Assembly (NCBI GenBank): GCA_027483355.1
Contig: JAIXUW010000292.1
Location: 138,308-202,307 of the forward strand
Length of the DNA stretch: 64,000 bases
From: Alphaproteobacteria bacterium
Lineage (GTDB): Bacteria > Pseudomonadota > Alphaproteobacteria > Micavibrionales > UBA2020
Direction: 5' to 3'
Every line of letters starts with the position of its first letter. Within the stretch, counting starts at the first letter, position 1. Below, piece by piece: positions 58,141 through 59,049 of the stretch. A model generated the notes under the pieces. It did not search any database, was not told the DNA's origin, and worked only from the letters and a program-made list of their open reading frames with translations. Made by a program: the position numbers and the translations under genes.

Positions 58141-58453
58141 ATAACGTAACTTTGTTGTATGACATAACGTAACTTTACGGGATAACGTAACGTAACCAAG
58201 CTTGAATAACGTTACTTCAGTCTAGCGTTAAGTTATTTCAGAAAACGGCGAGTAGCTAAAAACGTGATGTAACGTAACTCTTGGTGACGTAACGTAACCT
58301 TCATACAATTACGTTACGTTATCGAATACAATTACGTTCTATGTGTATTTGCGATTTCTCTAACAACTCTTAAGCAACGTAATTCTGGACGCGACGTAAC
58401 GTAATTCCCCTAACTTGAGTTACGTTACGTTACCGCATTACGTTATGTCATAC
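58141..58453. repeat. hr/origin-like cluster of (AACGT)n motifs in both orientations with flanking 16-nt perfect inverted repeat
   Basis: ATAACGTAAC at 58141 and 58164; ATAACGTAACGTAAC at 58182; GACGTAACGTAACC at 58286; the reverse forms TTACGTTACGTTATC at 58309 and GTTACGTTACGTTACC at 58419. GTATGACATAACGTAA (58157-58172) is the exact reverse complement of 58438-58453. Confidence 0.85.
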
Positions 58454-59049
58454 CTTTTTCTCCTTTCCCTTTTCCCAGCCACTATCCGCGTTCGATTCAC
58501 GGGTTCTATTATGCCTAAACATATTATAATACACTGAATATTGGGATCGGCGCGGTAAAATAGTCACTCAGAAAAGTTTTCAGAACCAGGGTGACATAAC
58601 TTGGCGTCGTGATTTTACCATGCTCCCGGCTCAATTACGTTATCGGTCGACCGGGAAACGTTATCTCGCTTGTGGCTGGTTTAATCCTTGCGTTCAAATT
58701 CACAACACACACATTTACATACGGAAAGTTCAATTCTGTTACCATGGACGCGGTACGCATTGATTCTCCGCGCCCTCGAAATACGTTGTGGCGATTTCCG
58801 TGTTTCTCCTCCGCGATGCAAATCAAATGCGGTTATTGTTTATGCGTACAAAACGTTGAAATACTGCAGGTGCAAATTTACGCGAAGAGATTCGTTCATC
58901 GGTAACGCCCGACCGAGTTTGCGCTTGAGACAACGGCAACTTTTTTTTTCGCGCTCTTTCCCAAGTGCCCGGTGACGATATTTTCCACATATCACAAATG
59001 CTTGCCGCGTAAAACCATTACTCATGTATATTCCATTATGACCGCGTAG

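What the first reader, a model, noticed from the sequence alone, without database searches (positions are those of the whole stretch)
58141..58666. hr/origin-like element: bidirectional cluster of (AACGT)2-3 motifs framed by a perfect 16-nt inverted repeat inside the longest non-coding island
The 1.4-kb gap at 57630-59049 is exceptional in a genome with 30-100 nt spacers. Within about 310 bp there are at least 12 copies of ATAACGTAAC or ACGTAACGTAAC. They are forward-oriented on the left (58141-58300) and mostly reverse-oriented on the right (58309-58453). Matching pairs include 58157-58172 with 58438-58453 (16/16) and 58182-58196 with 58309-58323 (15/15). Further ATTACGTTATCG and AACGTTATC copies lie at 58634 and 58657. 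The architecture recalls baculovirus/nimavirus hr regions and herpesvirus lytic origins. The TAACGTAA core resembles a bZIP (PAR/CREB-like TTACGTAA) half-site array.
Basis: partly seen in the sequence, partly recalled or inferred. Interest (0 to 1): 0.75.

Follow-up and report, generated by a model that had tools for sequence, protein, structure and literature searches.

The report
Phased palindromic binding-site array, origin-like
In the middle of the longest non-coding gap of this unidentified, marine-related large DNA virus-like genome sits a real 300-base mirror-symmetric array of about 16 copies of one short DNA word, which looks like a docking platform for a single DNA-binding protein (a replication origin and/or enhancer), but it is single-copy here and lies in a gene island that the closest known relative lacks.

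Summary
All 13 exact TAACGTAA and all 9 AACGTAAC sites of the 64-kb window lie in 58142-58642, against about 1.4 expected. The 16/16 inverted repeat is confirmed, and the gap is the longest between ORFs.

The unit is a 13-bp double site, TRAYRTAACGTAA, with 8 copies plus about 8 single sites. Sites are phased at about 21 bp and mirrored about a dyad near 58304. The sites, not the spacers, carry the symmetry. An AT-rich stretch (33% GC) lies on the left, and the window's longest homopyrimidine tract (24 nt) lies on the right.

The array sits centrally between two divergent ORFan genes, inside a 7.9-kb island absent from the closest relative. I found no second copy in the window, in 70 kb of relatives, in IMG/VR or in JGI metagenomes. 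So "hr" in the multi-copy sense is not shown. The true bZIP palindrome (TTACGTAA/TACGTA) never occurs.

Best reading (0.4): a herpesvirus-oriLyt/hr-like origin-plus-enhancer platform. Main rival (0.35): a purely transcriptional bidirectional enhancer for the two island genes. The virus lineage could not be identified. Interest is moderate.

The parts
57630..59037 (.). Intergenic control region between two divergently oriented ORFan genes. It is the longest non-coding gap in the window.
   Evidence: The dyad axis (about 58304) lies 30 bp from the gap midpoint (58333).
58039..58135 (.). AT-rich stretch (33% GC) directly left of the site array. It is a candidate easily unwound region.
   Evidence: GC 0.33. 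(the 50-bp window at 58039 is at the 99.8th percentile of duplex instability, though comparable to other intergenic spots).
58141..58196 (+). Iteron-like direct repeats: a 23-bp unit in 2.4 copies, carrying forward sites at 58142, 58165, 58183 and 58188.
   Evidence: highest-scoring tandem repeat of the window, score 70. (D5)..
58157..58453 (.). Diverged palindrome of about 300 bp with its dyad axis near 58304. The outer arms are 58157-58196 and 58419-58453, including the perfect 16-nt inverted repeat. It holds 8 double sites TRAYRTAACGTAA at 58159+, 58183+, 58265+, 58285+, 58309-, 58392+, 58420- and 58438-.
   Evidence: I3, I9. (ssDNA fold z = -5.6). (arm alignment score 86 against 20 +/- 6.6 for shuffles). 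(the 11-mer AC[GA]TAACGTAA has 8 copies here and 1 elsewhere). (the symmetry is carried by the sites: masked spacers give p = 0.078; site versus spacer identity, Fisher p = 0.005).
58285..58322 (.). Central spaced palindrome IR-A. Two double sites face each other head to head across an 11-nt, 73% A+T spacer (CTTCATACAAT), on the dyad axis.
   Evidence: I21, arms 58287-58297 and 58309-58319, 11/11. (hairpin -9.9 kcal/mol, z = -3.0).
58392..58433 (.). Second spaced palindrome IR-B. Two double sites face each other head to head across 9 nt.
   Evidence: I13, arms 58394-58407 and 58417-58430, 93%. (hairpin -12.8 kcal/mol, z = -5.7).
58453..58476 (+). 24-nt homopyrimidine tract CCTTTTTCTCCTTTCCCTTTTCCC, abutting the right arm of the perfect inverted repeat.
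   Evidence: It is the longest purine or pyrimidine tract in the 64 kb. A tract of 24 nt or more appears in 0.5% of shuffles.
58634..58666 (-). Two outlying reverse-oriented sites of the GATAACGT subclass, about 180-200 bp right of the palindrome.
   Evidence: GATAACGT: 5 of 6 window copies lie in the gap.
55974..57629 (-). Left flanking gene, 551 aa, with an acidic C-terminal tail. It has no homologue other than itself.
   Evidence: Identical copies are in Logan contigs L167 and L168.
59038..61623 (+). Right flanking gene, about 860 aa. It has NLS-like basic clusters and acidic Ser/Asp tracts. There is an in-frame TAG at codon 4 (59047-59049), and the first ATG after it is at 59320. It has no homologue other than itself.
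53780..61690 (.). Lineage-specific island of about 7.9 kb containing the element and both flanking genes. Synteny with the relative L002 stops at about 53.7 kb and resumes at 61.7 kb. The same junction in L002 is 145 bp.
   Evidence: No terminal repeats were found at the island borders.

Best explanation
The element is a nucleation platform for one sequence-specific DNA-binding protein. That protein is unknown and could be viral or host.

**Anatomy.**
- Eight 13-bp double sites (TRAYRTAACGTAA, two tandem TAACG/GTAAC pentamers) and about eight single sites sit on one face of the helix, with about 21-bp phasing.
- They are mirrored about a dyad at about 58304.
- At the dyad, two double sites face each other across an 11-bp A+T-rich spacer.
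- A 97-bp 33%-GC stretch lies on the left and a 24-nt homopyrimidine tract on the right.

**Proposed mechanism.** I read it as an origin-type cis element of the herpesvirus oriLyt / baculovirus hr class. Cooperative binding to the phased sites bends or loops the DNA. This strains the central palindrome and the flanking low-stability tracts so that they open and replication proteins can load. The same bound protein activates the two divergent promoters on either side.

**Shown:** the sites, their enrichment, orientation, phasing and symmetry; stronger conservation of sites than of spacers; the flanking tracts; the genomic position.

**Inferred:** that a protein binds, that unwinding and replication start here, and that the element also acts as an enhancer.
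For: - Extreme, exclusive clustering of the motif.
- A 23-bp iteron-like tandem repeat, the top TRF hit of the window.
- About 21-bp (two-turn) phasing of the ACGT cores: R = 0.61-0.71, p about 0.016.
- A 300-bp dyad arrangement whose similarity resides in the sites (39/46 identical) rather than the spacers (77/123). Fisher p = 0.005, and masked spacers are not significant. This points to constraint on the sites.
- Two head-to-head spaced palindromes with 9-11-nt spacers. This is the same layout as the C/EBP palindromic pairs of KSHV ori-Lyt, which have head-to-head motifs 12-13 bp apart, four pairs in 240 bp, next to an AT palindrome and a promoter (PMC5397509).
- The longest homopyrimidine tract of the window abuts the array, and AT-rich DNA lies on the other side.
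- The array is centred between divergently oriented genes, as at HSV oriL and the SV40 control region (my own knowledge).
- Baculovirus hrs show that one repeat-palindrome element can be both origin and enhancer (PMC4535591).
Against: - The array is single-copy in 64 kb.
- The whole 7.9-kb island carrying it is absent from the syntenic site of the closest relative. If it is an origin, it is not positionally conserved.
- The AT-rich flank is no more extreme than other intergenic spots.
- There is no GC-skew feature at the locus.
- No replication gene, origin-binding protein or DNA-binding domain was recognised nearby or anywhere in the window.
- The virus lineage is unidentified, so no family-specific expectation can be applied.
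- Homotypic site clusters can be purely transcriptional.
Confidence: 0.4

Rival explanations
1. The array is a purely transcriptional element: a bidirectional enhancer or upstream activating array for the two divergent island genes. A host transcription factor of the ACGT-core class (bZIP-like, E4F/ATF-like) or a viral transactivator binds the phased sites and drives both promoters. It has no role in replication.
For: - The array is confined to the shared upstream region of one divergent gene pair and is centred between them, about 510 and 585 bp from the two ATGs.
- It travels with those genes in a lineage-specific island.
- The motif occurs upstream of no other gene in the window, as expected for a dedicated regulator.
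- TATA-like ATTATAAT elements lie on both sides, at 57793-57800 and about 58523-58530.
- One site is an exact GTGACGTAAC. From memory, that is the adenovirus E4 promoter E4F/ATF site, and TGACGTAA is also the core of the CaMV as-1 and ocs elements.
- Both flanking proteins have acidic tracts, and the right one has NLS-like clusters, as regulatory nuclear proteins do.
- Logan contigs identical to the window end at 58023 and 57751, just short of the array, and L168's ends fall near gene 5' boundaries. If those runs are RNA-seq, the array lies upstream of the left gene's transcript.
Against: - Enhancers do not need 300-bp dyad symmetry, spaced head-to-head palindromes or adjacent homopyrimidine and AT-rich tracts.
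- A symmetric bZIP dimer would not fit direct repeats of a half-site, and the palindromic core is absent.
- The library type of the Logan runs is unknown.
Confidence: 0.35
2. The array and a flanking ORFan form a self-contained cis/trans module acquired as an island. The array would be the binding-site set (direct-repeat part plus dyad part) for a DNA-binding protein encoded next to it. It would serve episome maintenance or partition, or as an accessory replicon, by analogy with EBV oriP/EBNA1, KSHV TR/LANA or a plasmid rep-iteron cassette.
For: - A direct-repeat block (58141-58298) is followed by dyad elements.
- The array and its two ORFan neighbours are gained or lost together.
- The 857-aa protein has NLS-like clusters, long acidic tracts and a separate C-terminal region. 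From memory, this is reminiscent of LANA/EBNA1-type proteins.
Against: - No DNA-binding, helicase or initiator domain was detectable.
- The C-terminal domain model is unusable, with pLDDT 34.
- The right gene carries a stop at codon 4.
- There is no evidence that this virus persists as an episome.
- The island has no terminal repeats.
Confidence: 0.1
3. The array is a non-functional or selfish repeat. It could be a MITE-like palindromic insertion, or a local expansion and inversion of an (AACGT)n microsatellite tolerated in a dispensable intergenic region.
For: - It is a 297-bp unit bounded by a perfect 16-nt (35-40-nt imperfect) inverted repeat with full-length hairpin potential.
- (AACGT)n clusters, including head-to-head ones, occur in unrelated eukaryote-like metagenome contigs such as L151, L156 and L158.
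- It lies in a variable island.
Against: - No target-site duplication flanks the inverted repeat.
- Sites of the same word lie outside the palindrome, at 58142, 58634 and 58657.
- No second copy or homologous element was found anywhere searched; similarity to other loci is at motif level only.
- Sites are better conserved than spacers between the arms.
- Sites are helically phased.
Confidence: 0.1

Closest known systems
KSHV ori-Lyt (gammaherpesvirus lytic origin)
   Same: - Within about 240-300 bp there are several spaced palindromes, each made of two head-to-head copies of a short bZIP-type motif 9-13 bp apart.
- These lie next to AT-rich DNA and promoter or TATA elements in a long non-coding region (PMC5397509; window).
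   Different: - The motif is different (CCAAT/C-EBP versus TAACGTAA).
- KSHV has an 18-bp pure AT palindrome, an RTA response element and 600 bp of GC-rich tandem repeats, none of which is seen here.
- KSHV has two copies per genome.
- No herpesvirus hallmark gene was found in this window.
- The element here also has a direct-repeat block.
HSV-1 oriL/oriS (alphaherpesvirus origins). Comparison from my own knowledge.
   Same: - A palindrome centred on an A+T-rich spacer.
- Flanked by inverted binding sites for one protein.
- Located between divergently transcribed genes.
   Different: - The HSV palindromes are 45-144 bp, nearly perfect, with 3 sites. Here there are about 300 diverged bp with about 16 sites.
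- The central spacer here is only 11 bp.
- No UL9-like protein was recognised.
Baculovirus (and nimavirus) homologous regions, hrs
   Same: Repeat units with imperfect palindromes in non-coding DNA. The class is known to act both as enhancer and as origin (PMC4535591), and from my own knowledge it is often associated with variable genome regions.
   Different: - Hrs are multi-copy, for example seven per genome, each with 3-8 repeats of 64 bp containing a 24-bp palindrome.
- Here there is one copy in 64 kb, the units are 21-23 bp, and the palindromes are formed by pairs of units.
- There is no sequence similarity.
HCMV major immediate-early enhancer / adenovirus E4 promoter (ATF/E4F sites). Comparison from my own knowledge.
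   Same: - A dense array of repeated short ACGT-core sites in a long non-coding region next to divergent genes.
- One copy here is an exact GTGACGTAAC.
   Different: - Those arrays are heterotypic or direct repeats without large dyad symmetry.
- They use palindromic CRE cores, which are absent here.
Polyomavirus core origin (GAGGC pentamers) and parvovirus Rep/NS1 sites (tandem tetramers). Comparison from my own knowledge.
   Same: The recognition unit is a short pentamer or tetramer used in tandem (2-3 copies) and in inverted pairs around a centre. The control region lies between divergent transcription units.
   Different: - Those origins are tiny (about 65 bp) and are bound by SF3 helicase or HUH initiators.
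- No such protein was detected here.
- The scale here is 5 times larger.
Plasmid and phage iteron origins (for example the array in L016)
   Same: Phased direct repeats of about 20-23 bp next to a gene. L016 (an IMG/VR phage-like contig) has an ACGTTA-rich iteron array in a non-coding stretch.
   Different: - That context is prokaryotic.
- The arrays are not homologous; they only share an ACGT-rich word.

Membership tests
Baculovirus/nimavirus-type homologous region (hr) | Several dispersed, mutually homologous copies per genome | tested here: inconclusive
   Only one copy in the 64-kb window. No other clustered 8-mer or related repeat was found. At baculovirus density, several copies would be expected. 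The other 228 kb of the genome could not be fetched.
Baculovirus/nimavirus-type homologous region (hr) | Tandem units of about 60-300 bp, each containing its own imperfect palindrome | tested here: not met
   The units are 21-23 bp. The palindromes are formed between units, not within each unit.
Baculovirus/nimavirus-type homologous region (hr) | Enhancer and origin activity; binding of a viral transactivator such as IE-1 | not testable with these tools
   Needs transient replication and reporter assays.
Herpesvirus-type lytic origin (oriLyt, oriL/oriS) | Lies in non-coding DNA between divergently oriented genes | tested here: met
   55974-57629 (-) and 59038-61623 (+) flank the gap, and the dyad is 30 bp from the gap midpoint.
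Herpesvirus-type lytic origin (oriLyt, oriL/oriS) | Dyad symmetry with inverted protein-binding sites around an A+T-rich centre | tested here: met
   IR-A has arms 58287-58297 and 58309-58319 across an 11-nt, 73% A+T spacer, nested in a 300-bp diverged palindrome. The centre is short compared with known origins.
Herpesvirus-type lytic origin (oriLyt, oriL/oriS) | Positional conservation among related viruses, or adjacency to replication genes | tested here: not met
   The island 53.78-61.69 kb is absent from the syntenic junction of the relative L002. The neighbours are ORFans.
Herpesvirus-type lytic origin (oriLyt, oriL/oriS) | The host genome is a herpesvirus (HK97 capsid protein, terminase and so on) | tested here: inconclusive
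   No hallmark was found in 50 ORFs. The 1535-aa conserved protein is alpha-helical with no fold match.
Herpesvirus-type lytic origin (oriLyt, oriL/oriS) | Supports origin-dependent DNA replication | not testable with these tools
   Needs a replication assay or nascent-strand mapping.
PAR/CREB-type bZIP site array | Palindromic or pseudo-palindromic core (TTACGTAA, TGACGTCA) | tested here: not met
   TACGTA occurs 0 times in the gap. The sites are TAACGTAA, a direct repeat of GTAAC. Only one TGACGTAA is present, at 58285.
PAR/CREB-type bZIP site array | GTAAY half-site with an ACGT core | tested here: met
   All sites contain ACGTAA[CT].
MITE / TIR transposon | Terminal inverted repeats | tested here: met
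   16/16 perfect, and about 35-40 nt imperfect (I3 and I9).
MITE / TIR transposon | Target-site duplication and multiple copies | tested here: not met
   The flanks (TTGTT on the left, CTTTT on the right) are not a duplication. No other copy was found in the window, in relatives, in IMG/VR or in JGI metagenomes.
EBV oriP-like maintenance element (FR + DS) | A direct-repeat family plus a dyad-symmetry element made of the same binding site | tested here: inconclusive
   A forward block at 58142-58298 and dyad elements at 58285-58322 and 58392-58433 exist. However, they are contiguous and small.
EBV oriP-like maintenance element (FR + DS) | A cognate virus-encoded site-specific DNA-binding protein | not testable with these tools
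   The flanking proteins have no detectable domains, and the structure model failed.

The most novel reading that the evidence does not exclude
The 7.9-kb island is a portable cis/trans module in an unclassified lineage of marine-related large DNA viruses. In this reading, the phased, mirror-symmetric array of pentamer-doublet sites is bound by one of the two adjacent ORFan proteins. Together they would form an accessory replicon or episome-maintenance unit, functionally like oriP/EBNA1 or a plasmid rep-iteron cassette. Both the protein and the site would be unrelated to anything described.
Probability: 0.1. Interest if true: 0.7.

Novelty: new member of a known kind. Interest (0 to 1): 0.4.

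Why it matters
The window belongs to a gene-dense, ORFan-rich large DNA virus-like genome. Its relatives are known only from Tara, ENA and Logan assemblies, and none of its hallmark genes could be recognised here. For such viruses no cis-acting element is known.

A compact, testable candidate origin or enhancer with a defined 13-bp site gives three experimental handles:
- finding the DNA-binding protein by pull-down or one-hybrid;
- mapping replication or immediate-early transcription;
- building reporter or replicon constructs.

Its position in a lineage-specific island also bears on how accessory gene blocks and their control DNA are gained. In kind, though, it is an expected feature of large DNA viruses, and no activity has been shown.

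Tried and rejected
**Homologues of the element**
1. IMG/VR scan for TAACGTAACGTAAC: over 120 loci, nearly all single chance double sites. A few held local ACGT-rich arrays, all unrelated, such as the phage-like iterons in L016.
2. Head-to-head pattern in IMG/VR: one low-complexity contig end, L123.
3. Head-to-head pattern in JGI metagenomes: 43 loci. These were (AACGT)n microsatellite-like clusters in eukaryote-like contigs and a bacterial terminator, L145. blastn of the gap against all fetched loci found motif-level matches only.
4. GTDB genome scan for a two-site pattern: 99 chance hits, and the window's own 292,368-bp contig is not there.

**Fetching the rest of the genome**
5. P0001 and the window protein at 61699-63387 are not on record for DNA.

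**Identifying the virus**
6. Pfam on 50 ORFs gave only SET+MYND, BTB, RING and RabGAP-TBC.
7. PDB sequence searches were empty.
8. The HMMER representative search found a 17-member family with no names and no Pfam domains.
9. The AlphaFold model of the conserved 1535-aa protein is helical, with no PDB or BFVD match. A mirusvirus was considered, but nothing supports it.

**Other readings of the region**
10. ncRNA: no Rfam match in 53.5-59.5 kb at E <= 1. The hairpin stems are too short for pre-miRNAs.
11. A larger palindrome or concatemer junction: the outer flanks of the gap are not mirrored.
12. A spliced first exon for the right gene: considered, but an in-frame ATG at 59038 followed by TAG at codon 4 is the simpler reading.
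13. TAG reassignment: rejected, because TAG ends 9 other genes.
14. Island borders: no terminal repeats.
15. An LRR impression for the 551-aa protein: not supported by Pfam.

**Literature**
16. Searches for the motif strings and the run accessions returned nothing.
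Full report
**1.

Reading 57400-59300 and mapping ATG-initiated ORFs shows a divergent gene pair. The left gene is 55974-57629 on the minus strand and the right gene is 59038/59050-61623 on the plus strand. About 1.4 kb separates them. Other internal gaps in the window are at most 625 bp, with a median of roughly 80-90 bp.

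A codon-usage score trained on the window's long genes puts 58110-58560 far below coding values. The best frame scores -0.3 to -0.6, against an in-frame mean of +0.22 +/- 0.09.

The motif is strongly and exclusively clustered:
- TAACGTAA occurs 13 times in 64 kb, all in 58142-58642. Dinucleotide-preserving shuffles give 1.36 +/- 1.14, with a maximum of 5.
- AACGTAAC occurs 9 times, all in 58143-58431, against 1.56 expected.
- Allowing one mismatch to TAACGTAAC gives 16 sites in the cluster and 3 in the other 63.4 kb.
- A Markov model built from the core's own composition predicts only 0.2-0.64 copies.
- An unbiased scan for any clustered 8-mer in the window returns only words from this element.

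The 16/16 inverted repeat 58157-58172 / 58438-58453 is exact. The outlying copies at 58634 and 58657 are present.

**2. Anatomy**

AC[GA]TAACGTAA occurs 8 times in the cluster with at most 1 mismatch, and once elsewhere. Reading the flanks gives a 13-bp double site, TRAYRTAACGTAA. Copies are at 58159+, 58183+, 58265+, 58285+, 58309-, 58392+, 58420- and 58438-. Single sites add to these: 58142+, 58207 (variant), 58332-, 58376+, 58634- and 58657-. A GATAACGT subclass has 5 of its 6 window copies in the gap.

*Direct repeats and phasing.* The left part is the best tandem repeat of the whole window, with a 23-bp period in 2.4 copies and a score of 70. The ACGT cores across 58130-58460 are phased. 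The Rayleigh spectrum peaks at 21-21.25 bp (R = 0.61, or 0.71 after merging 5-bp doublets) with a second peak at 10.5 bp. The p-value is about 0.016 against random placements. So the sites lie on one face of the helix.

*Dyad symmetry.* The array is mirror-symmetric about position 58304.
- The left half aligns with the reverse complement of the right half at score 86, against 20 +/- 6.6 for shuffles.
- The single strand folds with z = -5.6.
- The symmetry is carried by the sites. With the sites masked, the spacers no longer align significantly (p = 0.078). Identity is 39/46 inside sites against 77/123 outside (Fisher p = 0.005).
- Either an old inverted duplication kept its sites while the spacers decayed, or the sites were placed symmetrically. 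Both imply constraint on the sites.

*Spaced palindromes.* Two double sites face each other across an 11-nt, 73% A+T spacer at the dyad (IR-A, 58287-58297 / 58309-58319). A second head-to-head pair lies at 58394-58407 / 58417-58430 with a 9-nt spacer.

*Flanks.* The 97 bp to the left (58039-58135) are 33% GC and include a 50-bp window at the 99.8th percentile of duplex instability. Other intergenic spots are similar, however. Abutting the right arm is a 24-nt homopyrimidine tract at 58453-58476. It is the longest purine or pyrimidine tract in the window, and one that long appears in 0.5% of shuffles. The outer flanks of the gap are not mirrored, so the palindrome is confined to about 320 bp. 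No Rfam family matches.

**3. Context**

*The genome.* The window is gene-dense on both strands, 48% GC, with no CpG depletion. Of 50 ORFs, only four have Pfam domains, all eukaryote-like: SET+MYND, BTB, RING and RabGAP-TBC. The same genome exists as an unnamed NCBI contig of 292,368 bp.

*Relatives.* A relative at about 70% protein identity occurs in Tara, ENA and Logan assemblies. More distant relatives share a conserved block: RabGAP-TBC, then a minus-strand gene of 650-740 aa, then genes of about 900 aa and 1500-1900 aa.

*Lineage not identified.* The 1535-aa protein family has 17 representatives among 1.84 billion proteins, with no Pfam domain. Its model is helical (pLDDT 63, pTM 0.68) and matches nothing in the PDB or BFVD. 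I could not assign the lineage. "Large dsDNA virus" is inferred from gene density and ORFan content. That its relatives are marine is an inference from one of them appearing in the Tara collection.

*The island.* The key contextual result comes from tblastx against the relative L002.
- Synteny runs from 39.4 to 53.7 kb.
- It then resumes at 61.7 kb. Window 61699-63387 (-) matches L002 15249-17018 (-), and window 63704-63997 matches L002 17310-17603.
- In L002 the two blocks are 145 bp apart.
- So window 53.78-61.69 kb is a 7.9-kb lineage-specific island. It holds several small ORFs, a 189-aa ORF, the 551-aa gene, the array and the roughly 860-aa gene.
- Both large flanking proteins have no homologue but themselves among 5.8 billion proteins.
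- The island has native-like codon usage and no terminal repeats.

**4. Searches for relatives of the element**

None turned up a homologue.
- L002, L268 and L269 (about 70 kb of relatives) have no TAACGTAA cluster and no clustered 8-mer of any kind.
- Pattern scans of IMG/VR and the JGI metagenomes found only chance double sites, (AACGT)n microsatellite-like clusters in eukaryote-like contigs, a bacterial terminator and a phage-like iteron array.
- blastn shows nothing beyond the motif.
- The remaining 228 kb of this genome could not be obtained, so whether other copies exist there is open.

**5. What it most likely is**

The shown facts point to a nucleation platform for one site-specific DNA-binding protein. 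Those facts are a homotypic, helically phased, mirror-symmetric array under site-level constraint, a central spaced palindrome, and AT-rich and homopyrimidine flanks, all centred between divergent genes.

*Best reading (confidence 0.4): an origin-type element that probably also enhances the flanking promoters.* The layout is closest to the following:
- KSHV ori-Lyt, where eight bZIP-type motifs form four head-to-head pairs 12-13 bp apart within 240 bp, beside an AT palindrome and a promoter (PMC5397509).
- HSV oriL/oriS and the SV40 control region (my own knowledge).
- Baculovirus hrs, which show that one repeat-palindrome element can serve as both origin and enhancer (PMC4535591).

The inferred steps are these. 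Cooperative binding on one helical face bends or loops the DNA. This opens the central palindrome or the adjacent low-stability tracts, and replication proteins load.

*Main rival (0.35): a purely transcriptional bidirectional enhancer for the two island genes.*
- The array is unique to their shared upstream region and is gained or lost with them.
- TATA-like elements lie on both sides.
- One site is an exact GTGACGTAAC, the E4F/ATF-type site as I recall it.
- Logan contigs identical to the window stop just short of the array. If those runs are RNA, that would place the array upstream of the left transcript.

*Minor rivals (0.1 each).*
- A cis/trans module in which a neighbouring ORFan binds the array, like oriP/EBNA1 or a rep-iteron cassette.
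- A selfish or neutral palindromic repeat. Against this last reading: there is no target-site duplication, sites lie outside the palindrome, no other copies were found, the sites are phased, and sites are more conserved than spacers.

**6.

- "Origin-like" is a fair description of the architecture.
- "hr" in the strict sense of dispersed homologous copies is not shown, and within 64 kb it is not met.
- The bZIP analogy is weak. The palindromic TTACGTAA/TACGTA core never occurs, and the sites are direct repeats of a GTAAC half-site, which a symmetric bZIP dimer would not fit.
- The island location argues against an ancestral, essential origin, but not against an accessory one. From my own knowledge, VZV lacks the oriL that HSV has.

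**7. Novelty and score**

The element has no sequence relatives and sits in an uncharacterised virus lineage. Still, repeat-palindrome control or origin regions are a well-known kind in large DNA viruses, and no activity is demonstrated. I rate it a new member of a known kind, with interest 0.4.

Noticed in passing
window 59038-59320: The right flanking gene has an in-frame ATG at 59038, followed by ACC GCG and then TAG (59047-59049). The next 90 codons (59050-59319) score as coding (0.234 against an in-frame mean of 0.219) but contain no ATG. This is the longest such ATG-less open stretch of 47 genes. TAG is an ordinary stop elsewhere, ending 9 genes. It could be a nonsense mutation with downstream re-initiation, readthrough or a sequencing error.
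   Followed up: partly
window 53780-61690: A 7.9-kb lineage-specific island lies between two blocks that are adjacent (145 bp apart) in the relative L002. It contains only ORFans and several doubtful 90-109-aa ORFs, and has no terminal repeats at its borders.
   Followed up: partly
window 42350-53271; L002, L268, L269: A conserved gene block is shared by a set of otherwise unannotated contigs from ENA and Logan: RabGAP-TBC, a minus-strand gene of 650-740 aa, a plus-strand gene of about 900 aa, and a plus-strand gene of 1500-1900 aa. The large protein family has only 17 representatives in 1.84 billion proteins. It has no Pfam domain and a helical model with no fold match. This may mark an undescribed virus lineage.
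   Followed up: partly
window 23901-27272 (-), 13388-15016 (+), 15019-15888 (-), 42350-43720 (+): These are the only Pfam-recognisable genes among 50 ORFs, and all are eukaryote-like: SET+MYND (1123 aa), BTB, a C3HC4 RING and RabGAP-TBC.
   Followed up: no
L167 (= window 53490-58023) and L168 (= window 55291-57751): Logan contigs from SRR16126875 and SRR16126878 are 100% identical to the window. L168's two ends fall near the 5' boundaries of a convergent gene pair. L167 stops 118 bp short of the motif array. If these runs are RNA-seq, the contigs may reflect transcript boundaries. The library type is unknown.
   Followed up: partly
window 19564-19619 / 19698-19753: This is the longest inverted repeat of the window: 56-nt arms, 82% complementary, 78 nt apart. 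It overlaps a weakly coding 106-aa ORF (19562-19882, score 0.05). It is unrelated in sequence to the finding.
   Followed up: no
window 39891-39909: A (CG)9.5 dinucleotide run, which is Z-DNA-prone, lies in the intergenic region between the genes at 38864-39880 and 40068-41606.
   Followed up: no
window 17706-18330: This is the second-longest internal gap between ORFs (625 bp). It includes a 31-nt direct repeat, 17596-17626 / 17942-17972, at 87% identity. It contains no TAACGTAA sites.
   Followed up: no
L016 2430-2990 (IMGVR_UViG_3300021509_000010): A phage-like AT-rich contig has a non-coding array of degenerate repeats of about 20-24 bp rich in ACGTTA/CAGTTCCGT, next to a 250-aa gene. It looks like a prokaryotic iteron origin and shares only the ACGT-rich word with the finding.
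   Followed up: partly
L151 470-990, L156, L158 90-360, L150 8700-8760: Unrelated metagenome contigs, apparently eukaryotic, carry dense (AACGT)n / TACGTAA clusters, including head-to-head arrangements. This pentamer repeat therefore recurs as a simple or dispersed repeat in other genomes.
   Followed up: partly
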